From the NCBI GenBank assembly GCA_963664875.1, contig OY761611.1, positions 3,616,001 through 3,680,000 on the forward strand: 64,000 nt of DNA. The letters run 5' to 3'. The notes under the pieces were generated by a model that was given only the letters and a program-made list of their open reading frames with translations, was not told the DNA's origin and made no database searches. Origin of the DNA: Candidatus Kapaibacterium sp. (lineage in GTDB: Bacteria > Bacteroidota > Ignavibacteria > Kapaibacteriales > UBA2268). The position numbers and the translations under genes are program-made. Below are positions 16,638-36,134 of the stretch, piece by piece; the first letter of the stretch is position 1, and each line of letters starts with the position of its first letter.

Positions 16638-19600
16638 TTATGAGCATCCACTTGTGCTACCGCAATCTTCACAAACTGTGCAGCTTCCGTTGCGTTTTAC
16701 TCTTGCCGAACCACATTGAGCACATTGTTCGCCTGTGTAGCCAAAAGCAATAGCATCATCTTTGCTTACAGTCAGTTTTGCAGCAGCAGTGCCGTTAGTA
16801 CCGTTACTAACTGTTTCGGTACCAACTGCAACTAACTCACTAACTAATTCCGGATCGATATCTTCCTCATTAGCCGGGAGAGTATCGTCAAAATCTATTG
16901 CCCTGGGGGTAGATTTTACCGGTTTTTCTTCGTTGTCGTCATGTTTGTCTTCATCCACAGCATTAACGTGAATGAAATCTTTCCTTCCGAGATAGTCATA
17001 ACCAAGTGAGCGGAAAACGTAGTCCAAAACAGAAGTCGCATTTTTAATTGCTTCGTGACCATCAACCAATCCCGCAGGTTCGAAACGTGTAAATGTAAAC
17101 GAATCCACTAATTCTTCCAATGGCACTCCGTACTGCAATGCTTTCGAAGCCAAAATGGCAAAACTATTAAGCAAGCCGCGGAATGATGCACCTTCTTTGT
17201 ACATATCTATGAAGAGTTCACCTAAAGAACCATCTTCGTATTCGCCGGTTCTCAAAAAGACCTTATGCCCACCAACGTAAGCCTCTCTGATGTGACCTGA
17301 GCGTTTTTTAGGAAGCTTGTGACGTACAAGTTTGTAGTGAATTCTGTCTGCAATTATTTCCTGAACCTCTTTAGGACCTTTTGTTTCGTCTAATGTGTTT
17401 TCATCACCTAATGTTATTAGTTCGTCCAAATCCGAATAGTTCGTTGTGTTCAAAGGCTGTGAAAGTTTTGAACCGTCTCTGTAGAGAGCGATTGCTTTCA
17501 CCATAGACTTCCAGGAAGTCATGTAAACTTCGCCAATCTCGGAAACTGATGCTTCCGCAGGCATATTTACAGTTTTTGAGATAGCACCTGAAATGAAAGG
17601 CTGTGCAGCTGCCATAATTCTGACATGAGCCATGTGGTGAATGTAGCGTTTGCCTTTTTTGCCGCATTTGTTAGCAGTGTCAAATATCGGCAAATGTTCT
17701 TCTTTCAAGTGAGGCGCACCTTCTATAGTCATAGTGCCACAGATGTAATCATTTGCTGCATCTATCTGCTCATCTGTAAATCCAAGTCGTTTGAGCAGAT
17801 TAAATTTTGAATCATTGTAGTCGCTTTCGTTGAAGCCAAGAGATTTCAGGAAATCTTCGCCGAGCGACCATTTATTGAAAGCAAAAGTTATATCAAATAC
17901 AGATGCAAGCTGTGGCTCGATTGCTTCGATTTGCTCTCTGTTAAATCCTTTTGCTTCTAAAGATTTTTTGTTGATATGCGGACAACCCACTAATGTAGCA
18001 TGCCCTTTAGAATATTTTTCTATGTCTTCTATCTGCTTATTGCCATAACCCAATTTTGTTAATGCTTTGCGAACTGATTGATTGACAATTTTGAAATATC
18101 CGCCGCCTGATAGTTTTTTGTATTTTATGATAGCAAAATCAGGTTCGATACCTGTAGTATCGCAATCCATAACAAGACCAATCGTGCCGGTAGGAGCTAT
18201 CACTGATACCTGAGCATTGCGGTAACCATATTGTTCGCCAAGTTCCAAAGCTCTGTCCCAGACTAATCTTGCAGCTTCTACTAATTTTTCATCTACATAT
18301 TTTGTATTGATGCCCATTGGTCTGACAGTCAAATCCTCATACTTAGCAGGAGCTTCGTTATATGCTGCTCTGCGATGGTTGCGAATGACTCTGAGCATGT
18401 GCTCTTTGTTGAGTTCGTATTTATCGAAAGTGCCAAGCTCTTTTGCCATCTCTGCGGACGTAGCATAAGCCTGCCCTGTAAGCATTGCAGTCAAAGCACC
18501 CGTCATAGCCAGAGCTTCCGGAGAGTCGTAAGGAATACCGTTTACCATTAGTAATGTACCAATATTGGCATAACCTAAGCCGAGTGTACGGAAATCAAAG
18601 CTTTTTTGCGCAACTTCTTTGGATGGGAACTGAGCCATCAATACGGATATTTCGAGCACAACAGTCCAAATGCGAATTGCATGTAAGTATTCATCTACTA
18701 AGAAATGACCTGTTGCTTCATCGTAAAATTTCATTAGATTTAAACTTGCAAGGTTGCAGGCGGTGTCATCTAAAAACATGTATTCGCTACATGGGTTCGA
18801 AGCATTTATTCTGCCTGATTCCGGGCAGGTATGCCATTCGTTAATAGTAGTGTCGTATTGTACGCCAGGATCTGCTGACTTCCAAGCACTCATGTTTATC
18901 TTGTTCCACAAATCTCTCGCACGTACCGATTTTACAGTATCGCCATTGGTACGGAATTTCAAATCCCACATTTCGTCATTTTCGACACACTGCATAAACT
19001 CATTTGTGATACGAACTGAGTTATTTGAATTTTGGCCGCTGACAGTCAGATATGCTTCGCCTTCGTAATAAGTGTCAAACTCTTCGAAGTTAAGATTAGT
19101 GAAGCCCTGACTTACTAAATCTAATGTTCTGTCTATTATATTTAGTGGAGTTCCTCGGTGGATAGCTCTTTGGATAAGAGTATTTAGTCTTTTGTTTTGC
19201 TTACGGTCAGCATTATTGTTGATGGCTTCATCGACAATAGCCTGCAAAAATGCTTTGTTTACTCTTGAGCCTGCCACCAAAGCAGCAACTTTCTCTTCTT
19301 CGCGAGCTTTCCAAGTGATAAATTCTTCTATATCCGGATGGTCTATGTCAAGTATTACCATTTTAGCTGCACGGCGAGTAGTGCCACCTGATTTGATAGC
19401 TCCGGCAGCTCTGTCGAAAATCTTCAAAAAGCTCATAAGCCCGGAAGAAAGCCCGCCTCCTGAAAGCGGTTCACCGAAAGCACGAATATTAGAAAAATTA
19501 GTACCTGTGCCGCTACCATATTTAAAGATACGTGCTTCTCTAGTTGCCAAATCAAAGATACCGCCTTCGTTAAGTAAGTCATCATTGACTGACTGAATAA

Positions 19601-20150
19601 AGCAGGCATGAGGCTGAGGGCGAGAGTAAGCGTCTTTTGATTTATTGATTTTCTTAGTTTCCGGATCTACAAAGTAGTGTCCTTGCTTGCTGCCTGTGAT
19701 TCCGTATTCATTGTATAAACCTGTGTTGAACCACTGAGGCGAGTTTGGAGCCGCCATTTGGTTTACAAGCATATAAACAAGCTCGTCATAAAAAACTTTA
19801 GCGTCCTGCTCAGAATCGAAATATTTGAAATCAACACCCCATGATTTCCAAGTATTTGCTAATCTGTGCATCACCTGTTTTATAGATTTTTCGCTGCCAA
19901 GTATCTGCTTACCGTCTTCATCTATAACTGGTTTGCCGGATTCGTCATACAGAGGCACTCCTGCTTTTCTGAAATATTTCTGGGCAAGTATGTCAGTTGC
20001 CATCTGCGACCAAGTCGTAGGCACTTCCACATCATTTGCTTCGAATACTACAGAGCCGTCAGGATTCCTAAGCACAGAAGTTCGTTTTGTATATTTGAAT
20101 AAGTCAAAAGGACTTATGCCATCTTTCGTAAAGAGTCGGCTAAATTTCAT
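16638..20150 (-). CDS. nrdJ: Class II (adenosylcobalamin-dependent) ribonucleotide reductase
   Basis: [41 protein letters not shown]-terminal TSCPD domain and CxxC...CxxC ribbon. Confidence 0.96.
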
Positions 20151-20450
20151 GCTGCCACCGTTCAAAATGTCAATAATTATACTTTACATTAGACCAAATC
20201 AGCTTAAAAATTGGTATATTGTAAAACATAACCTTGAATATATAGTTATAATAAAACTTGAATTCTTTAGCAAAAAGTACCCTAAGAAAAATTGTTTATT
20301 GAAGTGGCTACTTCGCTTAAGATACAAATATAGACGTATATTTTTCATAAAAGACTATTGTTTTCCACAAATAGCTAACACCGCCGTAAATCATTTGTGG
20401 ATAAATATTTAGAGCGATAAAAAAATATTGATAATAAATAGGTATTCAGT

Positions 20451-21020
20451 ATGTTAGAGCAAATTTTACAATTAGATACTGAAATATTTCAGCTTGTAAA
20501 CAGCGGAATGGCTAATATAATAATGGATTTGGCTATGCCAATTGTAACAAGCCTGAAATATTGGACTCCTGTATATCTGATAGGATTTCTTTTTCTTTTG
20601 ATAAAATATAAATGGAAAGGACTGTTTTATTGTGTAATGATATTGCTAACAGTCGGAATTGCTAACGAGTTATCGAGCCATATACTGAAAGAATTTTTCG
20701 TTCGCCCGAGACCATGCCACACTCTAAGCGGAGATGAAATTAGATTGTTGGTAGGCTGTGGACCGGGCAAATCATTTCCTTCTTCGCATGCTACAAACAA
20801 CTTTGCTCTTGCAACCATACTAACATACTACTTTAGAAAATACCGCTACTGGTTTTATTCAATTGCTGCACTTGTAGCATTCTCCAGAGTTTATGTAGGA
20901 GTGCACTATCCCATAGATATAAGTGCCGGAGCAATACTTGGCACTTCTGTAGGCTTACTTTTTACATTAATAGCCACCAAAATTGATAAGAAGTGGAATC
21001 TGAAACCTGAGAGTAAATAG
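20451..21020 (+). CDS. PAP2-family phosphatase
   Basis: KEFFVRPRP, SFPSSH and SRVYVGVHYPID motifs. Confidence 0.93.
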   Translation: MLEQILQLDTEIFQLVNSGMANIIMDLAMPIVTSLKYWTPVYLIGFLFLLIKYKWKGLFYCVMILLTVGIANELSSHILKEFFVRPRPCHTLSGDEIRLLVGCGPGKSFPSSHATNNFALATILTYYFRKYRYWFYSIAALVAFSRVYVGVHYPIDISAGAILGTSVGLLFTLIATKIDKKWNLKPESK

Positions 21021-21060
21021 ATTTAGCTACACTAATATCTCTATATATAAAACTATATAA

Positions 21061-21124
21061 CCCCCTTGTGTCCATAAAATTGCAAAATCGCGGACACAAA
21101 GGGGTTTGTGTTTATGTGGGGTTG
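21061..21124 (+). repeat. Palindromic module-boundary repeat D1
   Basis: CCCC(C)TTGTGTCC ATAAAATTGCAAAATCGC GGACACAAAGGGG. Confidence 0.9.
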
Positions 21125-21565
21125 AGAATTTACAAATACAGTAAAAAAACTCCTGCTTTTCTTGGTCAGTCATTTCAAAGAAAGGGAGATGTCTAATAGC
21201 TAATAGAAAAAGAAAGTGCCATTCACACGGAATTGATATTATATATACTTATTTCGGTATGTGTGTTATAGTTTATAAATTTCCAATAAGTAATAATATT
21301 TTTTTAAATTTTGAAAATTATTCTTGTATATGTTGTGATAATTATCTAATTTGTTTCAAATGATAATTAATGCACTATATGTATATGTTTGAGTATAAGT
21401 GTAATGTATTTTAAAATAATGAGGCAAATGTTATGAGGGTTTAAAAAAGGATCGACTTGGGCCAGCCGATCCTCAAATCAGCTCATTCAGTCAATTCAAG
21501 AACTGAATGTACCGAATATACGCAATAATTGACGGATTGAATTCTAAATCAGTTTAATCCAAAAT

Positions 21566-21877
21566 ATGGACAAAAAAATGAAATCGATTATTAAAATTCT
21601 ATGCGGAACTATAATTGTATCTGCAATTGTATGCTTCGGTAGCTTTGAAGCATTTTCCACAATTCATAAAGGTGATTTTTACACAGAATCTGGAAGAATA
21701 GAAAGAGAAGGACAACATGTCAAAACTGAACGTGCGAATGGCGTTTTTATAATTTCTTGTAAAAGAGAAAAGGAAGGATGCTGTTGGGAAATTCGTAATG
21801 GAGAATTAGAAATACATGATCAAAACTTTGTGCAGAGTGCTCCTACATCTGTCGATATTATAATGCCACGGTTTTAA
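21566..21877 (+). CDS. Small secreted Cys-containing protein
   Basis: Signal peptide ending ..FEAFS; mature part contains SCKREKEGCCW. Confidence 0.7.
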   Translation: MDKKMKSIIKILCGTIIVSAIVCFGSFEAFSTIHKGDFYTESGRIEREGQHVKTERANGVFIISCKREKEGCCWEIRNGELEIHDQNFVQSAPTSVDIIMPRF

Positions 21878-21944
21878 AATCAATATTTCACTTAAGAAGG
21901 ACGCCATATAGGTGTCCTTCCACTTTGATATGAGAAGATTAACA

Positions 21945-23144
21945 ATGAAATATATCCTGTTTGCTATACTGCTAATTTCTTGTAACAACAACTTACGATC
22001 GAATCGTACTTTTAAAGTTGAAGAAGATCAAGTTTGTATAATATCGAAACCACTTTCGATTAGTTTTCAATATAACAAAGTACTATTTGCTGATATCACG
22101 GGTAAACTTGTATGTCTCTATTCAAGAGAAGGCAAAATATTGAAAACATTTGCACCTGAAATGCGCTTTTCTGATTCAATAGCGCTCCTTCAAGAAAAAC
22201 CGAAAAATAAAAGATTTGTCTTAATTGATGAGTATGCTCAAGATTATCCTCAGGAATTAGAAAACGGTGGCTTGCAAAACGCACTTGGCAATATGTACAC
22301 AAACTGTTGCTTTAAAGACTCCAATACTATTGTATGTGGTGGAATATTTGGCGTTTTGATTAAGAAGCCTAAATACGCAAAAAAGAGCTATGGAATATCT
22401 ACTCAAACAATGATTAATGAATACAGTTTGCTATCCTCAAAAATCAAGAGCATTCCATTGCCGGAAGTAGAAGAGCCCTATGGTGTTTTAAACTCAGAAA
22501 CAATGTTCTATTTGGAAAAAACAGATAATTATGTAATGGATTTTTCTACTTTCAAAAAACCTGAGGAAGATAGCATACCTTATTGTTATGCACTGTCAAA
22601 AATGGATAAAGATGGAAAATTTCAAAAAGTTTTTTTTGAAGTGCCGAAAGTATTGCAGTCTCCTTTTCTTTCTGATGATTTTATAAGAATCTGTGCTACA
22701 GGAGACGACAGTTTGTGGTGTGCATTCCCTAAAATAACAAAGATTTATAACCCGGAATCCACCAGCTCGTTTGAATTGAAGCTCAAAAACAATTCTAATA
22801 ACCTGTTTCTTGATAGTATGTCTTTCCTTATTGGTAAATACTCTGATGAAATTGATAAGAGAATAAATCAGCTGTATGCACATTTAAGATATCAGGTTGA
22901 ATCTATCTGTAATTTCCATAATAATATACTTGTTTTTCTGAGAGATCTGATAGATAAAAAGCATATCTTACAGCTTTATACTACTAAAGGTAAATTTCTT
23001 AAAGAAGTGATTTATGAAGAATTTAGTGAGAGTGAAGAAATCGCTGGAATTGCATATGCCAAAGACACAGAAGAATTCATTTTTATTTCAATGAAGGACG
23101 AAGAGTGGTTCTTTACTTATAAAAAAGTAGAGGAGGTATTTTGA
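21945..23144 (+). CDS. Lipoprotein, probable beta-propeller
   Basis: Lipobox LLISC; blade-like motifs LYSREGKILK, KMDKDGKFQK and LYTTKGKFLK. Confidence 0.7.
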   Translation: MKYILFAILLISCNNNLRSNRTFKVEEDQVCIISKPLSISFQYNKVLFADITGKLVCLYSREGKILKTFAPEMRFSDSIALLQEKPKNKRFVLIDEYAQDYPQELENGGLQNALGNMYTNCCFKDSNTIVCGGIFGVLIKKPKYAKKSYGISTQTMINEYSLLSSKIKSIPLPEVEEPYGVLNSETMFYLEKTDNYVMDFSTFKKPEEDSIPYCYALSKMDKDGKFQKVFFEVPKVLQSPFLSDDFIRICATGDDSLWCAFPKITKIYNPESTSSFELKLKNNSNNLFLDSMSFLIGKYSDEIDKRINQLYAHLRYQVESICNFHNNILVFLRDLIDKKHILQLYTTKGKFLKEVIYEEFSESEEIAGIAYAKDTEEFIFISMKDEEWFFTYKKVEEVF

Positions 23145-23593
23145 AAAGATTAGTTAATTGTTTTGCCTTATGCCTTTGTATTACTTTTATATTGCTATTG
23201 TCTTCATGCAGAGGTGGAAGAGAGGTCTTTGATGTGAAAATTGAAGGCACTGTAGCCGTCTTTATGTTTGTTGATGAAAACGAATGTTTAGGTTGCTCAA
23301 CTTTTATGCTCGACTGCTTTAGTTTGTTAAATAATCAAAAAGATTTACAGGCTACTGCAATTGTAAATTGTAAGAGAGAAAAACAGCTGAAGACTTTCAA
23401 TAAAAATTATAACTGGAATTACTTGAGCATACTTGATAAAAACTATAAAGAAAAATACAATCTTAATCCTAATACTGTTGTTGTGCTTGCATTTCAGGAT
23501 TCTGAAAATTTAATTGAGTTTTGCAAAGATGATATTCAGGCAATAGAAAAAATAAAATCATATATAAGGATTGTACAAAATGAAATACGCTAG
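23141..23593 (+). CDS. Small lipoprotein with CxxC, thioredoxin-like fold suspected
   Basis: Lipobox LLSSC, ECLGC motif, 4-bp overlap with the upstream gene. Confidence 0.65.
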   Translation: MKRLVNCFALCLCITFILLLSSCRGGREVFDVKIEGTVAVFMFVDENECLGCSTFMLDCFSLLNNQKDLQATAIVNCKREKQLKTFNKNYNWNYLSILDKNYKEKYNLNPNTVVVLAFQDSENLIEFCKDDIQAIEKIKSYIRIVQNEIR

Positions 23594-24794
23594 TTTACTA
23601 ACTTTATTTGTTATCGTTGCGATTAATGTATTTGCTGAAGAAAAATGGTATTTGGAAACATCCAATTATTTCCCTTCTTTCCAAACAATGGAGTTTACTC
23701 AAAATAATCAGAAATATGGTGTAATAGCTGGCTTAAAAGGAGTAATTTTGACGTCAACAGATTCCGGAATTGATTGGTATGGCAATCAAGTATCAGATTG
23801 CCATTGGATAGGTGCTGCTTCCACAGACTCTTTAATTTGCTGTTTTGCTCAGCCGGGAATAGACAATAAAGATAGTTTAATAGCTGTTTATGATATGAGA
23901 ACTGGAAATATTAAACTCAAATCTACCCCTAAAGAAACAGACGGCACAAGAATAACAGGTGTCAATTTGCTAAGTTACCCGAAGGTATATTTAGTCAATT
24001 CGAACGGATCAATTTATGTTTCTGACTCTAATTTTGAAAATTGGGTTATTTATAACACTACTGCTGATTTCGCTGGGTTTGTTAAGTATGACAATAGCGG
24101 AAATCTATGGAAAGTCTCAACAAACAGTCAAGTTTATAAATCTGAAAATAATGGCCAAGATTGGACTATAGTAGAGGAGGCTGGTGAGAATATATATGAT
24201 ATTAAAGTGAGTGGGCAGTGGATATATGCCACTTCGAATCATGAAGCTGGAGTTGCACAAAAGGTTTATTGCTCTTCTGATTCAGGTCTTTCCTGGACTG
24301 AGATTGAATTGCCTTTAAATAAAAGACTTATGCGTATAGCACACTGTGAAAACAGAATCTTTATTACTTTTTGGGAAGAAGAAATAATGACCAATTACGT
24401 TTCAAACGACGATGGTTTGAATTGGACTGAACTTCCTCTTGAAACAAAAGACAATTTGTTGAGCTTCTGCTTTTTGTCCAGCTCTTTAGGTTATGCTTAT
24501 GGTACTCACAATTCTAAAGGTATATTATATAAATACACGATAGATACCTCTGTGTTGACTGAATTATCTTTAGATCCTAAGATTAGCTTGTATCCTAATC
24601 CTGCTTCGAATCTACTTACTATTGATATGCCACAACAAATTGAGCGTGTAGATATATTTTCCTCAGATGGCAAAAAAATCTTAAGTTCCAAAAATAAGCA
24701 AATAGAACTGGATGGCTTGCCTAATGGCACGTATTTTATCTATATCCGGACATTAGATAACACTTATACAAAACAGTTTATAGTATCTAAATAG
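23580..24794 (+). CDS. T9SS-secreted BNR/Ycf48-like beta-propeller protein
   Basis: BNR motifs STDSGIDW, SENNGQDW, SSDSGLSW and SNDDGLNW; CTD LYPNPASN...LPNGTYFI...KQFIVSK. Confidence 0.85.
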   Translation: MKYASLLTLFVIVAINVFAEEKWYLETSNYFPSFQTMEFTQNNQKYGVIAGLKGVILTSTDSGIDWYGNQVSDCHWIGAASTDSLICCFAQPGIDNKDSLIAVYDMRTGNIKLKSTPKETDGTRITGVNLLSYPKVYLVNSNGSIYVSDSNFENWVIYNTTADFAGFVKYDNSGNLWKVSTNSQVYKSENNGQDWTIVEEAGENIYDIKVSGQWIYATSNHEAGVAQKVYCSSDSGLSWTEIELPLNKRLMRIAHCENRIFITFWEEEIMTNYVSNDDGLNWTELPLETKDNLLSFCFLSSSLGYAYGTHNSKGILYKYTIDTSVLTELSLDPKISLYPNPASNLLTIDMPQQIERVDIFSSDGKKILSSKNKQIELDGLPNGTYFIYIRTLDNTYTKQFIVSK

Positions 24795-24813
24795 CAAAAT
24801 GAAAAAACTCAAT

Positions 24814-24884
24814 AACCCCTTTGTGTCCATAAAATTGCAAAATCGCGGACACAAAGGGGTTTGTGTATATTTGCGATGACACAA
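24814..24884 (+). repeat. Palindromic module-boundary repeat D2
   Basis: AACCCCTTTGTGTCC ATAAAATTGCAAAATCGC GGACACAAAGGGGTT plus tail TGTGTATATTTGCGATGACACAA. Confidence 0.9.
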
Positions 24885-24989
24885 GCGATATAGATATTAG
24901 TATATTTGGGAAAAAAAATATTATATTATCAGTCAAAAGGAGCCTGCTGTTTTTAATATGGATACTAAAGTTAATAATGAGTCCGGCGA

Positions 24990-25912
24990 TGATCCAAAAT
25001 CTTATTAGAGTAACGACATTTTATTTAGCCATGTTTATATTCGGAGTGTCTGCCTTTGCCTCCAATAAAGATTCGCTTGCTGAAAAACAAGAATATCAAA
25101 TTGGACTAACCGATGCCTTAGCAGCCACAGGTATATATTATGGAGCTTCTATTTATATTCTCAATAACACTTGGTACAAAGATAGAGGAACTGTTGCTTT
25201 TCATTTTTATGATGATAGTAAAGCTTATATGCAGGTAGATAAGCTGGGGCACGCTTTTGGCTCGTACTTCTATAGCTATATCGGCTTTTCCGGTCTGAAA
25301 TATTTAGGATTTTCTAACCAATCATCTCTGATTTATGGTGGCACTTTGGGATTCGTTTTGCAACTGCCAATTGAAATTATGGATGGCTTTCATGAAGGAT
25401 GGGGATTCTCTTGGTCGGATATTGCTGCAAATGCTTCCGGCTCTTTGTTGGTTATAGGTCAGGAACTTCTTTTTCAAGAACAAATTGCCAAATTTAAATT
25501 TAGCTATTGGGAAACTGACTATTCACGCAATGCGAATGGCTATTTGGGTGACAATACACTTGACAAGATACTTGATGATTATAATGGACACTCCTACTGG
25601 ATATCAGTTCCTATAAATATACTTACTCAGAAATCAATGCTACCCGACTGGCTTTGTTTATCTGTCGGATACGGAGCTAATGGTATGTATGGTGAATACG
25701 AGAATATCACTGAATATAATGGTGTCCCAATTCCTGAAACGCAACGCTACCGCCAGTACTTCTTTTCTTTGGATATTGATTGGACTAAGATAAAAACAGA
25801 TTCTCCAATCCTAAATGTTATACTCAAAGGTCTGACTTTTATCAAATTGCCTTTCCCAACAATCGAATATAACAGCCTCGGCAATTTTGAATATCATTGG
25901 TTGCACTACTAA
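24990..25912 (+). CDS. DUF2279 / YfiM-like protein (start uncertain)
   Basis: QVDKLGH, EIMDGFHEGWGFSWSDIAAN, DDYNGHSYW and RYRQYFFSLDIDW. Confidence 0.85.
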
Positions 25913-26057
25913 GATGTGTAGCTACTATTTGGGAAAATCTACCACAAAAGTTAAACCCTGATTGTCTTTAGAACTCAAAAACATTTGCAACTTCATTTAT
26001 GTGCGAGGAAGAATTCAATTAGTAATTTAAGAAAAACTTACATTTTGAATCATTGAA

Positions 26058-26320
26058 GGGGATGTCTCATAAGTACCCTCTAGATTTTATTAGACTTATT
26101 TCGTGCGAAAAATATTAATACAATAGGAGGCTGAAAGCCTCAAATATATTAGCCCGGGCAACGCCCCGGGAAAGATAAGTCATTGAAATATAGAGCCCTG
26201 TAAGGGCGACCAGCTTGAGACGCAATCATTGCGTCTCTACATTTTGCTTAACTCAATTCACATAATGTATTCAGTAATCGTCAAGTTAATATAGATTGTT
26301 TTGTCGTATGAGACAGCCTC
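26058..26320 (+). mobile_element. MITE family B, copy 1 (about 263 bp)
   Basis: Ends GGGGATGTCTCATAA ... TATGAGACAGCCTC; near-identical to 35871-36134; internal hairpins AGGCTGAAAGCCT and GCCCTGTAAGGGC. Confidence 0.85.
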
Positions 26321-26440
26321 CCAATAAATAAGATAACGACTTGCATTGGTTTTCACATGACATTTTTGGGTTAAATCAATTTTCTGACCTAATAAGCTCT
26401 ATAAGTTGCAAGACACAATCAGTAAAATTGTGATATAAAA

Positions 26441-26507
26441 ACTTTGTGTCCACAAAATCGCAAAATCGTGGACACAAAGTGTTTTGTGTATATTTGCGAT
26501 GACACAA
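26441..26507 (+). repeat. Palindromic module-boundary repeat D3
   Basis: ACTTTGTGTCC ACAAAATCGCAAAATCGT GGACACAAAGT plus the same tail as D2. Confidence 0.9.
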
Positions 26508-26644
26508 AAATCCTATAGTGCTTCTATATTGAATATACGCACATTTGCTAACAGATTCTTTCCAATTTATACAATAATCTTCCAAAACTTTTACCTGAAA
26601 ATATACACGTTTTTAGTGCAATTGGGGTTTGCGTCATTGCAATC

Positions 26645-26765
26645 GGACACAAGTTGATTAGTGTCCTTAAAAAATAAAAAAAGTGGACACAAAATAAAAT
26701 AATGTTGTAAGTTATTAGTATATATAGTATATTAGTGTATGTAAAAAAGTCCGAATAATGGACAC
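26645..26765 (+). promoter_or_regulatory. GGACAC/GTGTCC boxes upstream of the Fic gene
   Basis: GGACAC 26645, GTGTCC 26661, GGACAC 26685 (18-bp spacing from GTGTCC) and GGACAC 26760. Confidence 0.6.
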
Positions 26766-26793
26766 ATATATTTTTAACTTAGGAGTTTTTGCA

Positions 26794-27897
26794 ATGAGAA
26801 CTTACATTCCTGTCGAATTGCCTTTGAAAGATTTAGATTTCAAAAGGCTGCTTGGTATTGTTGCAAAGGCAAATGCAGAGCTTGCAAGGTACGACGGTCT
26901 CCTAAGTGGTATAGTAAATCCTGCAGTTTTGCTTTCACCGCTGACCACTCAGGAAGCAGTGCTATCTTCAAGAATTGAGGGTACGCAGGCTACTTTAGAC
27001 GAAGTCTTTGAGTTGGAAGCCGGTATGCAAAAAACAGAAATCATAGTAATGGATATACACGAAATCCAAAACTACAGAAAAGCTCTGATGCTGGGAGCAG
27101 ATTATCTATTGGATATGCCTATAACTCTTCCGCTAATCAGGCAGATGCATAAAGTGCTTTTAGATAGTGTGCGAGGTGCGGACAAAACGCCCGGTCACTT
27201 TCGGAAAGATCAAAATTGGATAGGGACACCGGGAACGCCTATCGAAGATGCTACTTTTGTGCCGCCTAATCCGTTTATTGTGGAAGAATACCTCAATAAA
27301 TGGATAAACTACATTAGAGCATCAGACATAGATGATTTGATTCAGCTTGCTATAGTTCATGCTCAATTTGAGCTGATACACCCGTTTAATGACGGTAACG
27401 GAAGAATCGGACGCTTGCTGATACCTCTGTTTTTGTACCACAAAAATGTGCTTAGCAGCCCTATGTTTTACCTAAGTGCATATTTAGAAAGACACAGAGA
27501 AGAATACTACGAATCATTGAGAATAATTTCCGAAAGAGGAGATTGGAACCAATGGATAGAGTTTTTCTTAAATGGAATTAGAGTGCAGGCAATGCATAAT
27601 TCCCAAAAAGTCAGAGATATAATGAATCTGTATGATAAAATGAAAACTGTGATTCAGGATATTACACACTCGCAGTATTCATTTAAAATCATAGATGCAA
27701 TATTCGATAAACCGATATTTAGCACTACTGATTTTATCAAAACTACCGGTATATCTAAGCAGTCAGCTTCTAAGTTCCTCACTGCACTAAAAGACAGAGA
27801 GCTGATAGCGATAATGCAAGAAGCAAGCGGCAGAAAGCCGGCAGTCCATATCTTCAGAGAGCTTATCAATATAGCAGAAGGCAAAACAGTAATCTAA
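26794..27897 (+). CDS. Fic-family protein with N-terminal inhibitory motif and C-terminal winged HTH
   Basis: HPFNDGNGRIGR active motif; SSRIEG (S/TxxxE(G/N)); C-terminal TTGISKQSASKFLTALKDRELI. Confidence 0.93.
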   Translation: MRTYIPVELPLKDLDFKRLLGIVAKANAELARYDGLLSGIVNPAVLLSPLTTQEAVLSSRIEGTQATLDEVFELEAGMQKTEIIVMDIHEIQNYRKALMLGADYLLDMPITLPLIRQMHKVLLDSVRGADKTPGHFRKDQNWIGTPGTPIEDATFVPPNPFIVEEYLNKWINYIRASDIDDLIQLAIVHAQFELIHPFNDGNGRIGRLLIPLFLYHKNVLSSPMFYLSAYLERHREEYYESLRIISERGDWNQWIEFFLNGIRVQAMHNSQKVRDIMNLYDKMKTVIQDITHSQYSFKIIDAIFDKPIFSTTDFIKTTGISKQSASKFLTALKDRELIAIMQEASGRKPAVHIFRELINIAEGKTVI

Positions 27898-27900
27898 AAT

Positions 27901-27965
27901 CCTTTGTGTCCACAAAATCGCAAAATCGTGGACACAAAATGTTTTGTGTATATTTGGGGTGACAC
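27901..27965 (+). repeat. Palindromic module-boundary repeat D4
   Basis: CTTTGTGTCC ACAAAATCGCAAAATCGT GGACACAAA; fills the gap between the Fic and HEPN stop codons. Confidence 0.9.
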
Positions 27966-29593
27966 TAAAGCTTTTTTTCTAATAATGTAAAAAAAATAGC
28001 ACTATCTTGCTCAACATCTTTAGTTGCTTCATAACGTATGCAAAAAACATAATTAAATATTGCTGATGCTGTTAGATGTAAAAGGTGTTCAGTTTTTTCT
28101 CTGAATTCTTTTACTTCGACTACTTGGAATAATCCTTCATTTTTTATATATGGAGAAGTTATTTCAGAATTTGTATTACCATTTTGAGTTAGAATCAGAA
28201 GATTATGCTCTAAATTATTTCGCCATTTTTTGTAATCGCTTAATTTCCCATTCTTGTTTAAATCTGATGCTAAAGAATATAGTGCAGTAATGAATGGGTT
28301 TTCTATAGTTTTGATTGCATCCCATCTCTCGTCGGTATTATTTTTCTTGTTTGGTATTTTCCAAAAACTATCAAAATAAAGATTTTCATTCAAATCTTTG
28401 GATAGATTGAAATAAGTGCAGATAGCCTTAGCTATCTTATCAAGAATACCAAAGCAAAGCCGAAAACTATTTCTAAGCATTTCTGATTTTGCTCCAATAA
28501 ACTCATTTTCGTTGAGTTCTGTATAAGTAATTTCTTTATCAATACTAGTACTTATATCATCATTCTCTGAAATACTCTCAAAAAACATCCATCTTGCTAA
28601 ACCAAATTCAGATTTAATGCGATTAAGAATTAGTTCTGATTCTCCTATAAGTTCGCCTTGTACCTCGACTGCAGTTATAACTAAATCATCACTTGAAGCA
28701 GCATTGCAATTGCAATATAAAGCGTGTTCGTTTAGAGCAAGTTTATTTTTTATGCAAAACAGTCTATAAGGAGAATGATTTTTAGCTTCTTCTTCTGACA
28801 ATTTAGTTTCGTGTACACGTGAAGAATAATCATAACCTTGTTGGTTAAGAAAATCATCATAAACATCACTGAGTTTTTTGGCACGTTTAGCATAATCCTT
28901 TGGAAGTGATTGATTTTGACTATCTTTATACCCTATATATATTTGAAACATCAGCTCTAAAGTACTATGTTGAGTATTCATTCTCAAAAATTGTAAACTA
29001 TTTGCTCTGTTATAATTGGCTTGTGGGAATGTTGGAGCTTGGGATAGAATCAAATCATAAAAATATAGAGACTCTATAATTCTTCCAAGTGAATAAAAAG
29101 TATTTGCTATATTATTATACAATTTTAAAGGTGGTGCAATTCCTTCTTTTAAAACAGATTGGAGAGACTGCAAATGATGATTTTTAGCTTCTATTAGAAG
29201 ATTGATTTCTTTAGGAATCTGAAACTTATCATAGTCGTCCGTTTGATTTGTAATTTTATAAAGTCCTTGTTTTGCATTGCCCATAATGTAGTGATAACTT
29301 TCTTCACTCACCAAACTATTAGACTTATACACCTCTTCAAATAGCTGAACTCCATTATTGATAACATCTTCTAATCCACCCTCTGATCCAATATCAATCA
29401 TACGTAATATTAATTCACCTCTATATAATTGAGAAACTTCCTCTTCGTAGTCAAAGAGTTGACCTAATCGTTCCTCTACAATTTTTAAAGCATCACAATA
29501 CTTACATTCATTCAGTAATAAATTTATCGAATCAAGTATATCTTTATCTTTCTCAGTTAGCTTGTCAATATATTGTTGATTTGGATTTTCCAT
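27965..29593 (-). CDS. TPR plus LA2681-like HEPN domain protein (putative RNase, defence candidate)
   Basis: TPR-like YNNIANTFYSLGRIIESL..YD; LNRIKSEF; FRLCFGILDKIA; Rx4H motif RNNLEH. Confidence 0.8.
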   Translation of the reverse strand: MENPNQQYIDKLTEKDKDILDSINLLLNECKYCDALKIVEERLGQLFDYEEEVSQLYRGELILRMIDIGSEGGLEDVINNGVQLFEEVYKSNSLVSEESYHYIMGNAKQGLYKITNQTDDYDKFQIPKEINLLIEAKNHHLQSLQSVLKEGIAPPLKLYNNIANTFYSLGRIIESLYFYDLILSQAPTFPQANYNRANSLQFLRMNTQHSTLELMFQIYIGYKDSQNQSLPKDYAKRAKKLSDVYDDFLNQQGYDYSSRVHETKLSEEEAKNHSPYRLFCIKNKLALNEHALYCNCNAASSDDLVITAVEVQGELIGESELILNRIKSEFGLARWMFFESISENDDISTSIDKEITYTELNENEFIGAKSEMLRNSFRLCFGILDKIAKAICTYFNLSKDLNENLYFDSFWKIPNKKNNTDERWDAIKTIENPFITALYSLASDLNKNGKLSDYKKWRNNLEHNLLILTQNGNTNSEITSPYIKNEGLFQVVEVKEFREKTEHLLHLTASAIFNYVFCIRYEATKDVEQDSAIFFTLLEKKL

Positions 29594-29757
29594 AGTATTT
29601 CCTGAGTAAAGTGTCTATATTTAGATTATATAATAATCAATATTTACAACATATAATAGTTAATAATCCAATCTTATCACAAAAAAAGGCAGCTGTCCAA
29701 AAACACCTGCCTTTCTTCTTTAAAATCTTAATTCCTAATTCCTAATTCCTAATTGAA

Positions 29758-31071
29758 TTAAGTTCCTGCGTTATAGTCTGTTATATAAGCTATTTGCTCA
29801 GGAGTAAGTTTGTCGAGTTTCATGCCCATAGATTCAATTTTTGTATTAGCGATGAATTCATCTTGCTCAGCAGGCAATTCGATAACTTCATTAGGAAGTT
29901 TTACGCCATTTTTGTGAGCTTCAGCCAATTTGATGTGTGACATGAACTGATTAGCAAAAGACATATCCATTACTTCTGATGGGTGACCTTCTGCAGCAGC
30001 TAAGTTAACCAAGCGACCCTGAGCCAAAAGATATAATCTTCTGCCGTCTTGCATCACGTATTCTTCGCAGTTGCGTCTGATTTCACGTTTAGAAACAGCA
30101 AGAGATTCTAATTCAGGGATGTTGATTTCTGCATCGTAGTGACCTGTGTTACAGATAATAGCACCGTCTCTCATTGATTCGAAGTGACGTTTACGGATAA
30201 TATCTTTTACGCCTGTAGCTGTAACGAAAATATCGCCAACTTTAGCAGCTTCGTCCATAGGCATCACTTCATGACCTTCCAAAGTAGCTTTCACAGCAGC
30301 AGTAGCTTTTACTTCAGTACAGATTGTGTTTGCACCCATGCCTTTAGCACGTTTAGCAACACCTGAACCGCAGTGACCATGACCGCCAACAACAATATTT
30401 TTACCTGCAAGCAACACAGAAGTTGCGCGGATGATACCGTCAAGAGTAGATTGACCTGTACCATAAACGTTATCAAAGTCCCATTTAGTTTCTGCATCAT
30501 TCACAGCATAAACAGGGTAGTACAATTTACCTGCTTCAGCTCTTGCACGCAATCTTTGGATACCTGTAGTAGTTTCTTCAGTACCGCCGATAACGTGGTT
30601 ATGAGCCATATCTTCATATTTTTCGTGTACTGTGTTAATCAAATCGCAACCATCATCCAACGTCAAATGAGGTTTTTTGTCGATAGTGCGTTCGATACAC
30701 CAGTAGAAATCTTCGTGGTTGCCGTACCATGCGAAGATAGAGATACCTTCTTCAGCAAGAGCAGCAGCAACAGCATCATTAGTAGAAAGCGGGTTACAAC
30801 CTGACCAAGTCACTTCAGCACCTGCAGCCGCAAGAGTGCGGATAAGGATACCTGTTTCTTTAGTTACGTGCAAGCAACCTGCGATTGTATAACCTTTTAG
30901 AGGTTTAGTTACTTCATATTCTTTTCTAAGTTTAGCAAGAACGGGCATTCTAGAGTCAGCCCAATCTAATAATTTTCTGCCTTCTTCAGCAAGAGAAAGG
31001 TCGCGGACACAATATTGTCCGGGCACTTCATCAAACTTGCCTTGAGCAGCTTTTGCAGGATAATCAGCCAT
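29758..31071 (-). CDS. ahcY: S-adenosylhomocysteine hydrolase
   Basis: GCLHVT, SGCNPLST, TEETTTG, FDNVYGTG and GHPSEVMDMSFANQ. Confidence 0.97.
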   Translation of the reverse strand: MADYPAKAAQGKFDEVPGQYCVRDLSLAEEGRKLLDWADSRMPVLAKLRKEYEVTKPLKGYTIAGCLHVTKETGILIRTLAAAGAEVTWSGCNPLSTNDAVAAALAEEGISIFAWYGNHEDFYWCIERTIDKKPHLTLDDGCDLINTVHEKYEDMAHNHVIGGTEETTTGIQRLRARAEAGKLYYPVYAVNDAETKWDFDNVYGTGQSTLDGIIRATSVLLAGKNIVVGGHGHCGSGVAKRAKGMGANTICTEVKATAAVKATLEGHEVMPMDEAAKVGDIFVTATGVKDIIRKRHFESMRDGAIICNTGHYDAEINIPELESLAVSKREIRRNCEEYVMQDGRRLYLLAQGRLVNLAAAEGHPSEVMDMSFANQFMSHIKLAEAHKNGVKLPNEVIELPAEQDEFIANTKIESMGMKLDKLTPEQIAYITDYNAGT

Positions 31072-31176
31072 ATCTGTTTACCTATTTTTATGTTAAAACG
31101 ATGTTTTTTTCTAATTTAAGTGGTTTGGATAGTTTATATATATCTTTAGAGGACATATAAATAGTAAAGATTCTTA

Positions 31177-31354
31177 TCCACCCCGCCTTCGCTAAGCTCA
31201 GGCACCCCTCAAGAGGGGAATTTGATTCTTTTTAATTTGAGTAAAGAATTATACATTGTGTTTATCATCTGTAAAAAGTATGTTTTTGCAATTTTCCATT
31301 CCCCTTTCCATTCCCCTCTTGAGGGGTGGCACGTAGAAGACGTGACGGGGTGGA
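31177..31354. repeat. Inverted REP pair (REPIN-like)
   Basis: TCCACCCCG...CACCCCTCAAGAGGGGAA and TTCCCCTCTTGAGGGGTG...CGGGGTGGA. The right half resembles the interior of family A (53745-53780). Confidence 0.75.
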
Positions 31355-31428
31355 AAAATTCCACACCATTTGCCAGAAAACCACTTTTAGTATGATACTA
31401 TACATAAAGACTTAAGAATCTACAAATC

Positions 31429-32580
31429 TTACCCAAAATTCTTTTTAAGCTGTTCTACCAAAGTAAGCTGTTCCCAAGGGAAATGATCGCGACCAAAGTG
31501 ACCATAAGCAGCAGTTTCTCTGAATATAGGTTTTCTAAGGTCTAAGCGTTCGATAATTCCTTTAGGAGTTAAATCTATATTTTTAGCTATATAATCTGAT
31601 AGCTCAATAGAGTCAATTTTAGATGTACCGTGTGTGTCCACAAATACTGAAACAGGTTCCGCTACACCGATTGCATAAGAAAGCTGCAAAGTACATTCTT
31701 TAGCTAAGCCCGCAGCCACAATGTTTTTAGCAATATGGCGAGCAGCGTAAGCCGCAGATCTGTCAACTTTTGTAGAATCTTTACCGGAGAACGCACCACC
31801 ACCGTGAGGAGCTCTACCGCCGTAAGTATCTACAATGATTTTACGACCTGTAAGACCTGTGTCACCATGAGGACCACCGATTACAAATTTACCTGTTGGG
31901 TTAACGTGCAATTTTGTGTTTTCATCAAGCAATTCGGCAGGAATAATAGCTTTTACAACGTGTTCGAAAACATCATCTCTGATTGTTTTTTGATCCACAT
32001 CAGGGTCGTGCTGAGTAGAAACTACGATAGTGTCAACTCTTTTGATTTCTTTAGTAAATCTGTCATATTCCAAAGTTACCTGAGATTTAGAGTCAGGGCG
32101 GAGGTATTTCATGATTTTACCTTCTTTTCTGATTTTTGCTAATTTGTGAACTAATCTGTGAGAATAGATTAGAGTAGCAGGCATCAATTCAGGAGTTTCA
32201 TCAACAGCATAGCCAAACATCATACCCTGATCACCGGCTCCTCCGGTATTAACACCCATAGCGATGTCATTAGACTGTGAGTTGATAACATTGATAACAG
32301 AGCAAGACTCAGCGTCAAATCTATAGTCGCCATTGTTGTAGCCAATATCTCTGATAACGCCTCTTACGATTTCAGGCAAGTCAATATATGTATTAGTAGT
32401 TATTTCACCACCAACCACAATCATACCGGTAGCAGCAAAGCATTCGCAAGCCACACGGCTCATTGGGTCGTCTTTTAGCATTGCGTCAAGCACTGCATCA
32501 GAGACTTGATCGCAAATTTTATCAGGATGTCCTTCTGAAACAGATTCAGAAGTAAATAAAAATGTATTTTTTAATGACAT
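31429..32580 (-). CDS. metK: S-adenosylmethionine synthetase
   Basis: [28 protein letters not shown] and YGHFGR. Confidence 0.98.
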
Positions 32581-32597
32581 TTTAGAAAGCCCATAAA

Positions 32598-35870: not shown

Positions 35871-36134
35871 GAGGCTGTCTCATAAGTACCCTTTAGATTT
35901 TATTAGACTTATTTAGTGCGAAAAATATTAATACAATATGAGGCTGAATGCCTCAAATATATTAGCCCGGGGCAACGCCCGTGGAAAGATAAGACATTGA
36001 AATATAGAGCCCTGTAAGGGCGACCAGCTTGAGACGCAATCATTGTGTCTCTACATTTTGCTTAACTCAATTCACATAATGTATTGAGTAATCGTCAAGT
36101 TAATATAGATTGTTATGACTTACGAAACAGCCTC
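35871..36134 (+). mobile_element. MITE family B, copy 2
   Basis: GAGGCTGTCTCATAA ... TACGAAACAGCCTC; near-identical to 26058-26320. Confidence 0.85.

What the first reader, a model, noticed from the sequence alone, without database searches (positions are those of the whole stretch)
21061..29593. Cassette-like array of accessory genes delimited by a GTGTCC-N18-GGACAC palindromic repeat
Seen: four same-orientation copies (21061, 24814, 26441, 27901) of a ~65-bp element TTGTGTCC-N18-GGACACAAA plus tail. I saw none elsewhere in the window. D1, D2 and D4 lie 3-40 bp after a stop codon, and D4 fills the gap between the Fic and HEPN stops. The copies are mosaic: D1 and D2 share the loop ATAAAATTGCAAAATCGC and bracket a 4-gene operon; D3 and D4 share ACAAAATCGCAAAATCGT and bracket Fic; D2 and D3 share the tail TATATTTGCGATGACACAA and bracket DUF2279. 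Inference: this is the pattern expected from successive site-specific integrations or excisions at a hairpin site, like an integron array but with a different site. D1-D3 are capped by AAC...GTT but are shorter than canonical attC and lack GTTRRRY. No recombinase lies in the window.
Basis: partly seen in the sequence, partly recalled or inferred. Interest (0 to 1): 0.82.

Follow-up and report, generated by a model that had tools for sequence, protein, structure and literature searches.

The report
Repeated Fic-protein operator, not an integron
The four hairpin repeats are real and confined to this one locus, but they look like the DNA-binding sites of the Fic defence protein encoded between two of them, copied around a variable gene island, rather than the recombination sites of a new integron-like system.

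Summary
Four same-orientation copies of a ~70-bp element lie at 21059, 24814, 26437 and 27897. They are the only copies in the complete 3.83-Mb genome.

Each element holds two palindromes, P1 (TTTGTGT-N22-ACACAAA) and P2 (same arms, N12). The gene between D3 and D4 is a full-length SoFic-family Fic enzyme with a C-terminal winged helix.

- In metagenomes, the same arms lie beside Fic homologues in 4 of 6 hits.
- TTGTGT-N22-ACACAA sits within ~220 bp of all 10 closest Fic homologues among 29 Bacteroidota loci. Other spacings give 0-6 loci.
- The published CccR operator has the same design, 10-bp inverted repeats with a 26-bp spacer.

Best reading (0.6): a Fic operator. Orphan copies bound neighbouring modules in a hypervariable island next to ahcY.

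No integron integrase is present and the attC features fail. However, synteny breaks fall inside the element in relatives, and the copies are recombinant mosaics. A role as recombination junctions therefore stays open (about 0.15-0.2).

Interest is moderate.

The parts
21059..21131 (+). D1: P1 palindrome (CTTGTGTCC-N18-GGACACAAG/A) with its stem extended to CCCC/GGGG. The P2 half is degenerate (TTTGTGTTTATGTGGGGTTGAG). Lies 41 bp after the PAP2 stop.
   Evidence: RNA fold -24.8 kcal/mol, z -2.55
24814..24886 (+). D2: P1 identical to D1, plus an intact P2 (TTTGTGT-ATATTTGCGATG-ACACAA). Lies 20 bp after the BNR/T9SS gene stop and about 75-95 bp before the likely DUF2279 start. Corresponds in position to the single copy in congeners G002 and G004.
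   Evidence: fold -30.3 kcal/mol, z -5.95
26437..26509 (+). D3: P1 with loop ACAAAATCGCAAAATCGT, and a P2 identical to that of D2. Lies about 290 bp upstream of the Fic start.
   Evidence: fold -25.8 kcal/mol, z -4.34
26644..26766 (+). Promoter-proximal Fic operator region. It holds a degenerate P1 (TTAGTGTCC-N18-GGACACAAA, 26658-26695) and extra GGACACA half-sites at 26645 and 26760, all within 150 bp of the Fic start codon.
26794..27897 (+). SoFic-family Fic (AMP-transferase) gene, 367 aa. Domains are Fic_N, Fic and a SoFic-like C-terminal winged helix. The catalytic motif HPFNDGNGRIGR and the inhibitory motif SSRIEG are present.
   Evidence: Pfam; PADLOC SoFic E 7e-115 over residues 2-361; PDB SoFic chains E 1e-34 to 4e-36; translation
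27897..27969 (+). D4: P1 identical to D3, and a P2 variant (TTTGGGGTGACAC). It starts 3 bp after the Fic stop and overlaps the HEPN stop codon.
   Evidence: fold -19.0 kcal/mol, z -2.56
21566..24794 (+). Module between D1 and D2: four co-oriented genes for exported or surface proteins. They are a 103-aa protein, a 410-aa lipoprotein-like protein, a 150-aa thioredoxin-like protein (weak match), and a 407-aa BNR/sortilin protein with a T9SS sorting tail.
   Evidence: Only the 410-aa gene has orthologues at the congeners' loci (65-76% identity).
24959..25912 (+). Module between D2 and D3: the DUF2279 lipoprotein gene. The ORF is listed from 24863; the likely ATG is at 24959 or 24978.
   Evidence: orthologues in G002 and G004
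25951..26376 (.). Copy of an unrelated, genome-wide dispersed repeat (MITE- or REP-like), inserted between DUF2279 and D3.
   Evidence: More than 80 blastn hits across the genome
27965..29593 (-). LA2681-like HEPN gene, convergent with Fic.
   Evidence: Pfam PF18733, E 6e-39; orthologue in G002
20451..21020 (+). PAP2 gene, the left border of the array. Its orthologues in all 4 congeners lie elsewhere in their genomes, with no element behind them.
29758..31071 (-). ahcY, the conserved right anchor of the variable island in all five genomes of the genus.

Best explanation
The ~70-bp repeat is a composite operator for the SoFic-family Fic protein encoded between D3 and D4.

Each copy carries two palindromes built from the same half-site. 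P1 is TTTGTGT-N22-ACACAAA, that is, 9-bp arms with an 18-bp AT-rich spacer. P2 is TTTGTGT-N12-ACACAAA, one helical turn shorter.

Inferred mechanism: a Fic homodimer places its two C-terminal winged-helix domains on the two widely spaced half-sites. It thereby represses its own promoter (D3, the degenerate copy at 26658 and the extra half-sites) and perhaps the promoters next to the other copies. D4 acts as a downstream operator or roadblock.

D1 and D2, and the single copies in three Fic-less congeners, are orphan copies. They were left or spread by recombination and deletion in a hypervariable island next to ahcY. D1 and D2 have stems strengthened to CCCC/GGGG and may now also serve as terminators.

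Shown: the anatomy, the restriction to this locus, the link with Fic genes across taxa, and the fixed spacing.

Inferred: binding by Fic, repression, and the history of the orphan copies.
For: 1. The only gene between D3 and D4 is a full-length SoFic homologue with a SoFic-like winged helix.

2. A metagenome search for the element alone returned 6 contigs with GC 41-60%. Four of them (L024, L025, L026, L028; L025 and L028 are near-duplicates) carry a Fic homologue of 52-62% identity within 200 bp. L028 reads palindrome-Fic-palindrome, like D3-Fic-D4.

3. 29 loci around Fic homologues were drawn from a sample of 401 genomes of the phylum. TTGTGT-N22-ACACAA with at most 1 mismatch occurs in 11 of the 29. 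That includes all 10 loci with >=51% identity (6 genera), always within about 220 bp of the ORF. The 36 other spacings tested, from 4 to 40, give 0-6 loci.

4. More distant homologues have different 9-bp arms at the same 18-bp spacing: TTTGCATAA, AACATCATG, TTATATCTC and TTTGTTGCT, the last on both sides of the gene. Even-spaced inverted repeats with spacers up to 18 bp are found in 10-15 of the 29 flanks, against 0-6 in control stretches. A fixed outer geometry with free spacer sequence fits a protein dimer on duplex DNA.

5. Published precedent, read as passages. CccR, a SoFic-like Fic with a winged helix, protects AGATAATCAT-N26-ATGATAATCT in its own promoter and represses it as a dimer (PMC9755527). 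Dimeric SoFic binds the first 100 bp upstream of its own gene (bioRxiv 10.64898/2026.07.09.737422).

6. In G002 and G003 a canonical terminator already precedes the element, so the element is not needed as one there.

7. In the G000 genome, exact TTGTGT-N22-ACACAA occurs only at D1-D4.
Against: - Binding was not tested. No tool here can test it.
- Four of the five genus genomes lack this Fic, yet three of them keep an intact element. The element therefore persists without its proposed binder. This could be recent loss: G002 keeps TGGGGTGAC, the right part of D4's P2, at its HEPN stop. But that match is only 9 bases.
- D1, D2 and D4 do not sit where an autoregulatory operator is expected. D1 lies about 460 bp before the next gene and D4 lies after Fic.
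- D3 is 290 bp from the Fic start, further than the roughly 50-100 bp seen in most homologue loci.
- Two of the six metagenome hits (L023, L027) show no Fic in the DNA held. L023 has only 237 bp upstream.
- The winged-helix recognition helix did not co-vary clearly with the half-site in my alignment of 21 homologues.
- Palindromic symmetry is equally what a hairpin in RNA or single-stranded DNA would need.
Confidence: 0.6

Rival explanations
1. Recombination junctions. The element, whether or not it is also an operator, is the place where modules are joined and lost. The mechanism would be either an unidentified site-specific recombinase acting in trans, or homologous or hairpin-provoked recombination between the ~65-bp direct repeats. 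Either would give a recombinase-less, cassette-like array.
For: - Each module is flanked by a pair of near-identical direct copies. D1 and D2 share about 62 nt, and D3 and D4 share the whole of P1.
- All four combinations of P1 type (a, c) and P2 type (b, d) exist: D1 a|d-like, D2 a|b, D3 c|b, D4 c|d. This needs at least one exchange between P1 and P2.
- Homology breaks fall inside or at the edge of the element:
  - G003 keeps the left arm and about 8 nt of spacer, then runs into a reverse-transcriptase module.
  - G001 loses homology right after P1 and TTTTGTGT.
  - L028 has a solitary right arm plus part of the spacer at the start of a 300-nt duplication.
- Both flanks of the element differ among the five genomes, while the element stays.
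Against: - G000 has no integron integrase and no serine recombinase.
- The 8 tyrosine-recombinase hits and 4 Y1 transposase genes all lie outside the window.
- The hairpins seen in the loci of the Y1 genes are different.
- Any sequence in a hypervariable island will sit near breakpoints.
- Only five genomes were compared. No empty-site or occupied-site pair with precise junctions was found.
- Gene conversion among four nearby repeats explains the mosaic without any cassette mobility.
Confidence: 0.17
2. RNA hairpins. The copies act as intrinsic terminators or RNA-stabilising stem-loops for the upstream genes PAP2, the BNR protein, DUF2279 and Fic.
For: - D1, D2 and D4 lie 3-41 bp after stop codons.
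- The stems fold at -19 to -30 kcal/mol with z -2.6 to -5.9, and are followed by UUUGUGU.
- D1 and D2 carry changes on both sides, from AAAC/GTGT to CCCC/GGGG, that lengthen the stem.
Against: - The 18-nt loop lies outside the 3-8 nt range the terminator scan accepts.
- The U-tract is interrupted.
- In G002 and G003 a textbook terminator precedes the element.
- A terminator would not keep the same arms and the same 22-nt spacing beside Fic genes in genomes of 36-60% GC. Nor would it often sit upstream of them.
- There is no Rfam match.
Confidence: 0.1
3. Integron-like attC array, or a REP/MITE-type element mobilised by an HUH (Y1) transposase.
For: - The copies share one orientation, form an imperfect hairpin, and D1-D3 are capped by AAC...GTT.
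- One metagenome Fic module is flanked by fragments of a Y1_Tnp gene.
- G000 has 4 Y1_Tnp genes.
Against: - No IntI.
- The AAC...GTT span is about 46-50 bp and the R boxes do not fit the attC consensus. That consensus is recalled, not taken from a call.
- There are only 4 copies in 3.8 Mb, which is far from REP behaviour.
- The Y1 genes of G000 lie in loci where other hairpins were found.
- The other Fic loci examined showed no Y1 gene among the ORFs scanned, although the 29 phylum loci were not scanned for it.
Confidence: 0.05

Closest known systems
CccR of Yersinia pseudotuberculosis and its PcccR operator (PMC9755527, passages read)
   Same: The regulator is a Fic enzyme with a C-terminal winged helix that dimerises through its N-terminal part. 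The operator is two inverted repeats of about 10 bp, separated by an unusually long spacer and lying at the gene's own promoter.
   Different: - The half-site differs (AGATAATCAT versus TTTGTGTCC), and so does the spacer (26 versus 18 bp).
- One operator was described there. Here there are 4-5 composite copies spread over 7 kb, some after genes and some beside genes other than Fic.
- The protein here is closer to SoFic than to 7cb8 by phmmer score. I recall, without confirmation from a call, that 7cb8 is CccR.
SoFic of Shewanella oneidensis and the 'SoFic' anti-phage defence family (PADLOC PDLC03963; bioRxiv 10.64898/2026.07.09.737422, abstract and passages read)
   Same: Full-length match to the PADLOC SoFic model (E 7e-115) and to SoFic structures. 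Dimeric SoFic binds the 100 bp upstream of its own gene.
   Different: No binding motif was defined for SoFic in the passages I read. The repeated, orphan-bearing arrangement has no counterpart in those passages.
Integron attC arrays and CALINs (clusters of attC sites lacking an integrase)
   Same: Same-orientation imperfect palindromes follow the stops of accessory genes, and no integrase lies nearby.
   Different: - No IntI anywhere in the genome.
- The sites are too short and lack the R''/R' boxes. The consensus is recalled.
- The modules are operons or genes with their own upstream regions.
- The site is linked with one particular gene family, Fic, in other taxa.
Core defence hotspots between conserved housekeeping genes
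   Same: The space next to ahcY holds different defence-type or mobile genes in each of the five genus genomes:
- Fic and HEPN in G000
- HEPN in G002
- a reverse-transcriptase module in G003
- RNase T-like and UvrD-like genes, plus an IS21-type pair, in G001
- other genes in G004
   Different: Here a specific 50-70-bp palindromic element persists inside the hotspot while both of its flanks change.

Membership tests
wHTH-Fic autoregulatory operator (CccR/SoFic type) | [quoted passage not shown] | tested here: met
   Pfam Fic_N 1.3e-24, Fic 2.7e-20, SoFic-like_C 7.8e-4 (below its cut-off). PADLOC SoFic 7e-115. The alignment to SoFic chains covers residues 22-353.
wHTH-Fic autoregulatory operator (CccR/SoFic type) | Two inverted half-sites of about 9-10 bp separated by a long spacer | tested here: met
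   CTTTGTGTCC-N18-GGACACAAAG in D1-D4. CccR has 10-bp repeats with N26.
wHTH-Fic autoregulatory operator (CccR/SoFic type) | The site lies in the gene's own promoter region | tested here: inconclusive
   A degenerate P1 and extra half-sites lie 30-150 bp before the Fic start, and D3 lies 290 bp before it. D1, D2 and D4 are elsewhere. No transcription start data.
wHTH-Fic autoregulatory operator (CccR/SoFic type) | The site is conserved beside orthologues, with fixed geometry | tested here: met
   TTGTGT-N22-ACACAA occurs in 11 of 29 homologue loci, including 10 of the 10 closest. Other spacings give 0-6. 4 of 6 metagenome hits to the element lie beside Fic.
wHTH-Fic autoregulatory operator (CccR/SoFic type) | Direct, sequence-specific binding and repression by the Fic protein | not testable with these tools
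   Needs EMSA or footprinting, and reporter assays.
Integron / attC array | Integron integrase (IntI) in the genome | tested here: not met
   TIGR02249: 0 matches over the 265-bit cut-off. The best, 84.8 bits, lies in a 325-aa open frame that is also the top Phage_integrase hit.
Integron / attC array | attC anatomy: R'' RYYYAAC and R' GTTRRRY boxes, 57-141 bp, extrahelical bases (consensus recalled) | tested here: not met
   By reading the sequence. The AAC...GTT span is about 46-50 bp. D1 and D2 have GTTTGTG where GTTRRRY is expected, and D4 has no AAC cap. IntegronFinder was not available.
Integron / attC array | Mostly promoterless single-ORF cassettes, each ending in its own site | tested here: not met
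   The D1-D2 module has four genes. Spacers of 75-460 bp lie between the sites and the next start codons.
REP/BIME with RayT (Y1 transposase) | Tens to hundreds of copies scattered through the genome | tested here: not met
   4 copies, all at one locus.
REP/BIME with RayT (Y1 transposase) | A cognate Y1 transposase flanked by the same hairpins | tested here: not met
   The inverted repeats found in the loci of the 4 Y1_Tnp genes are different, e.g. AAGCACTGAGTAG. One metagenome contig does have Y1_Tnp fragments beside the Fic module.
Intrinsic (Rho-independent) terminator | GC-rich stem, short loop, uninterrupted U-tract | tested here: not met
   The P1 loop is 18 nt and the tail is UUUGUGU. 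The scan reports only an alternative 7-pair stem for D1 and D2. A separate canonical terminator precedes the element in G002 and G003.
Xer/dif-type module sites (pdif) | Two 11-bp arms around a 6-bp centre (architecture recalled) | tested here: not met
   The arms here are 9 bp with 18-bp (P1) or about 8-bp (P2) centres.

The most novel reading that the evidence does not exclude
The operator palindromes of a SoFic defence gene double as portable junctions. A circular or incoming module that carries one copy recombines with a resident copy, between or inside P1 and P2. This builds and prunes a recombinase-less, cassette-like array in a defence and surface-protein hotspot. Solo copies stay behind in relatives, much as solo LTRs do.
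Probability: 0.15. Interest if true: 0.75.

Novelty: new member of a known kind. Interest (0 to 1): 0.42.

Why it matters
If the reading is right, it gives SoFic-family defence and toxin enzymes of Bacteroidota a concrete, testable operator: TTTGTGT-N22-ACACAAA, with lineage-specific arms at a fixed spacing. In the passages I read, the SoFic preprint defines no binding motif.

It also shows such operators outliving their gene and marking the joints of a variable island. That is a warning against reading every gene-bounding hairpin array as a new integron.

If the minority reading is right, regulatory palindromes acting as recombination joints would be a new route by which defence islands are assembled.

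Tried and rejected
- **Rfam.** The E-value mode on 18000-33000 gave only two sub-threshold chance hits. The gathering mode on four loci gave nothing.
- **Generic REP.** Rejected by regex, nhmmer and the exact-spacing scan.
- **Wider distribution.**
  - The covariance model R1 found the element in 4 of 130 family genomes, all in one genus.
  - The pattern found it in 4 of 61 relatives.
  - In genome contigs it found only the three congeners.
- **Y1/HUH link.** The inverted repeats found in the loci of the four Y1_Tnp genes differ.
- **Second binder in Fic-less congeners.** All five genomes share another Fic protein of about 354 aa. It is 61% identical between G000 and G004, with a weak DeoR-like HTH match. 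No N22 site lies near it in G000, so this led nowhere.
- **Decayed HEPN copy after D1.** I asked whether the 440-bp spacer after D1 is one. tblastn gave nothing better than E 7.
- **Co-variation of the recognition helix with the half-site.** The alignment of 21 proteins was not clear enough to use.
- **Promoter idea.**
  - TAnnTTTG is enriched on the sense strand 41-60 nt before ORF starts, 116 against 29 among 1309 genes.
  - The P2 loops of D2-D4 contain TATATTTG.
  - The box is 93-112 nt from the DUF2279 start and is absent from most other Fic loci, so I do not rely on it.
- **Sigma-70 scan.** Uninformative: 42 sites found against 43.3 expected.
- **Earlier findings.** Three look-ups gave nothing that bears on this.

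Full report
**1. What is there**

The region holds four same-orientation copies of a ~70-bp element: D1 21059-21131, D2 24814-24886, D3 26437-26509 and D4 27897-27969. The core pattern GTGTCC-N14-22-GGACAC occurs 5 times in the window, against 0.01 expected. Further GGACACA half-sites lie at 26645 and 26760.

The window lies in a complete 3,827,814-base genome with 36% GC.
- TTGTGTCC-N-GGACACAA occurs there only at D1-D4.
- An nhmmer profile finds only these four at E <= 2.7e-21. The next hit elsewhere has E 0.49.
- Exact TTGTGT-N22-ACACAA occurs 4 times, all at D1-D4. Spacings 8-36 otherwise give 0-2 each.

The repeat is therefore real, non-random and specific to this locus.

**2. Anatomy**

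Each copy has two palindromes made from one half-site.
- P1 is CTTTGTGTCC-N18-GGACACAAAG, which is TTTGTGT-N22-ACACAAA.
- After AAAGTG comes P2, TTTGTGT-N12-ACACAAA. It is intact in D2 and D3, altered in D4 and degenerate in D1.

The two spacers differ by 10 bp, one helical turn.

D1 and D2 share P1 and an extended CCCC/GGGG stem. D3 and D4 share P1 with another spacer. D2 and D3 share P2. D1 and D4 share the P2 variant TGGGGT (16 of 18 bases). All four combinations of two P1 types and two P2 types are thus present. That implies exchange between copies, by crossover or gene conversion.

**3. Genes**

From left to right:
- class II ribonucleotide reductase (-) and PAP2
- D1
- four co-oriented genes for exported or surface proteins: 103 aa, a 410-aa lipoprotein-like protein, a 150-aa thioredoxin-like protein, and a 407-aa BNR protein with a T9SS tail
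- D2
- a DUF2279 lipoprotein, then a copy of an unrelated dispersed repeat
- D3
- Fic
- D4
- LA2681-like HEPN (-), ahcY (-) and metK (-)

The Fic protein is a full-length member of the SoFic family.
- PADLOC SoFic scores E 7e-115 over residues 2-361.
- SoFic crystal-structure chains score E 1e-34 to 4e-36 over residues 22-353.
- Pfam finds Fic_N, Fic and a sub-threshold SoFic-like C-terminal winged helix.
- The catalytic HPFNDGNGRIGR and inhibitory SSRIEG motifs are present.

**4. Relatives**

Three of the four other genomes of the genus (G001, G002, G004) carry one copy each. None of 56 genomes outside the genus does. A covariance model finds the element in 4 of 130 family genomes, all in this genus. 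An exact-pattern scan of one genome per species returns only those three congeners. Their record titles read Candidatus Kapaibacterium, Chlorobiota and uncultured bacterium.

All copies lie in the same place, the variable space next to ahcY-metK. The flanks differ, however:

| Genome | Order of features |
|---|---|
| G004 | o410 orthologue - element - DUF2279 - two unknown genes - ahcY |
| G002 | TIG/fn3 gene - terminator - element - DUF2279 - HEPN - ahcY |
| G001 | transposase - o410 orthologue - element - RNase T-like and UvrD-like genes - IS21-type pair - ahcY |
| G003 | TIG/fn3 gene - terminator - left arm plus about 8 nt of spacer only - unknown gene and reverse transcriptase - ahcY |

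Further points on the relatives:
- The G002/G003 comparison puts a homology break inside the P1 spacer.
- G001 loses homology directly after P1.
- PAP2 orthologues (83-85% identity) lie elsewhere in all four congeners, with nothing like the element behind them.
- This Fic is found in 1 of the 5 genus genomes at E <= 1e-10.
- G002 keeps TGGGGTGAC, the right part of D4's P2, exactly at its HEPN stop. This suggests that G002 lost a Fic module rather than that G000 gained one. The match is only nine bases.

**5. The link with Fic**

A metagenome scan for the element alone gave 6 contigs with GC 41-60%. Four of them (L024, L025, L026, L028; L025 and L028 are near-duplicates) carry a Fic homologue of 52-62% identity right beside it. 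L028 reads palindrome-Fic-palindrome. The other two (L023, L027) show no Fic in the little DNA held.

I then took Fic homologues from a sample of 401 genomes of the phylum. Forty had a match at E <= 1e-60, and 29 loci besides the window's own were fetched.
- TTGTGT-N22-ACACAA with at most 1 mismatch is present in 11 of the 29. That includes all 10 with >=51% identity (6 genera).
- In those 10 it lies within about 220 bp of the ORF: upstream in six, downstream in three, on both sides in one.
- The 36 other spacings tested, from 4 to 40, give 0-6 loci.
- More distant homologues carry other 9-bp arms at the same 18-bp spacing: L046 TTTGCATAA, L054 AACATCATG, L061 TTATATCTC, and L055 TTTGTTGCT on both sides.
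- Inverted repeats with even spacers up to 18 bp occur in 10-15 of the 29 flanks, against 0-6 in control stretches.

Fixed outer geometry, free spacer sequence and lineage-specific arms are what a dimeric DNA-binding protein on duplex DNA would give.

**6. Published precedent**

CccR of Yersinia pseudotuberculosis is a SoFic-like Fic with a C-terminal HTH. It footprints AGATAATCAT-N26-ATGATAATCT in its own promoter, needs dimerisation, and represses the promoter. The authors relate the long spacer to the 70 Å between the two DNA-binding helices (PMC9755527, passages read).

A 2026 preprint reports that dimeric, but not monomeric, SoFic binds the first 100 bp upstream of its own gene. A third paper notes the shared architecture of this group (PMC10628234, passages).

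I found these through two literature searches. I made no search that would show the Bacteroidota motif to be unpublished.

**7. Best explanation (0.6)**

The element is a composite operator of the SoFic-type Fic protein. The promoter-proximal sites serve autoregulation. D4 is a downstream site, as in at least three other loci (L028, L043, L055). D1, D2 and the congeners' single copies are orphan copies in an island that is being reshuffled. D1 and D2, with strengthened stems (-24.8 and -30.3 kcal/mol), may also terminate the upstream genes.

Binding and repression are inferred, not shown. The main weaknesses are:
- intact elements in genomes without this Fic;
- the odd positions of D1 and D4;
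- an inconclusive co-variation check.

**8. Rivals**

(a) Recombination junctions (0.17). The direct-repeat pairs around each module, the four-combination mosaic and the breaks inside the element speak for it. Against it stand the absence of an integron integrase and of any serine recombinase, and the fact that all eight tyrosine-recombinase hits and all four Y1 genes lie outside the window. It is also trivially true that sequences in a hotspot lie near breakpoints. This rival does not exclude the operator reading.

(b) Terminator or RNA hairpin (0.1). Against it are the 18-nt loop, the canonical terminators that precede the element in G002 and G003, and the conservation of arms and spacing beside Fic genes in very different genomes.

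(c) attC or REP type (0.05). The defining features that could be tested fail; see the membership table.

**9. Novelty and verdict**

The finding is real. It is better explained as a new member of a known kind, the palindromic wide-spaced operator of a winged-helix Fic protein, than as a new integron-like system. Two things are new in detail: the motif and its fixed N22 geometry across Bacteroidota SoFic genes, and the orphan copies at the joints of a variable island.

The boldest reading not excluded is that these operators act as module junctions. I give it about 0.15. Interest overall is 0.42.

Noticed in passing
window 25951-26376; also about 35873-36134 and 53966-54065: A modular dispersed repeat (MITE- or REP-like) with more than 80 blastn hits across the genome. 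Copies reach 89-95% identity over 260-390 bp. Tandem copies at about 265-bp spacing lie next to a Y1_Tnp (IS200/RayT-like) gene at genome position 3.453 Mb. It is unrelated to the Fic palindromes.
   Followed up: partly
space next to ahcY: window 21000-29700; L005, L006, L007, L030: The space beside ahcY-metK holds different defence-type or mobile genes in each of five genomes of the genus: Fic and HEPN; HEPN alone; an unknown gene plus a reverse transcriptase (retron- or DRT-like); RNase T-like and UvrD-like genes with an IS21-type pair; and two unknown genes next to phage genes.
   Followed up: partly
L025 388-687 and 2095-2394 (= L028 1544-1656 and 3251-3363): In a 54%-GC metagenome contig, the palindrome-Fic-palindrome module is bracketed by a 300-nt direct repeat (98% identity) of part of a Y1_Tnp gene. 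The repeat begins inside the spacer of one palindrome.
   Followed up: partly
whole genome G000: The Bacteroidetes-type -7 promoter box TAnnTTTG is enriched on the sense strand 41-60 nt before ORF starts, 116 against 29 on the antisense strand among 1309 genes with free upstream DNA. This lineage therefore probably uses Bacteroidetes-style promoters.
   Followed up: partly
G000 genome 2708464-2709528 (L072 1174-2238) and orthologues L066-L069: A second Fic protein of about 354 aa, with a weak DeoR-like C-terminal HTH match, is conserved in all five genomes of the genus (61% identity between G000 and G004). A third, RhuM-Fic, lies at 1.349 Mb in G000.
   Followed up: partly
L036 and L037 (genomes G293, G433): In two genomes the closest Fic homologues (62-63% identity) sit between the end of an upstream gene and a downstream gene that begins MSERI..., with the palindromes between Fic and that downstream gene. 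Fic looks embedded in a restriction or BREX-like operon, but the neighbouring genes were not identified with a tool.
   Followed up: no
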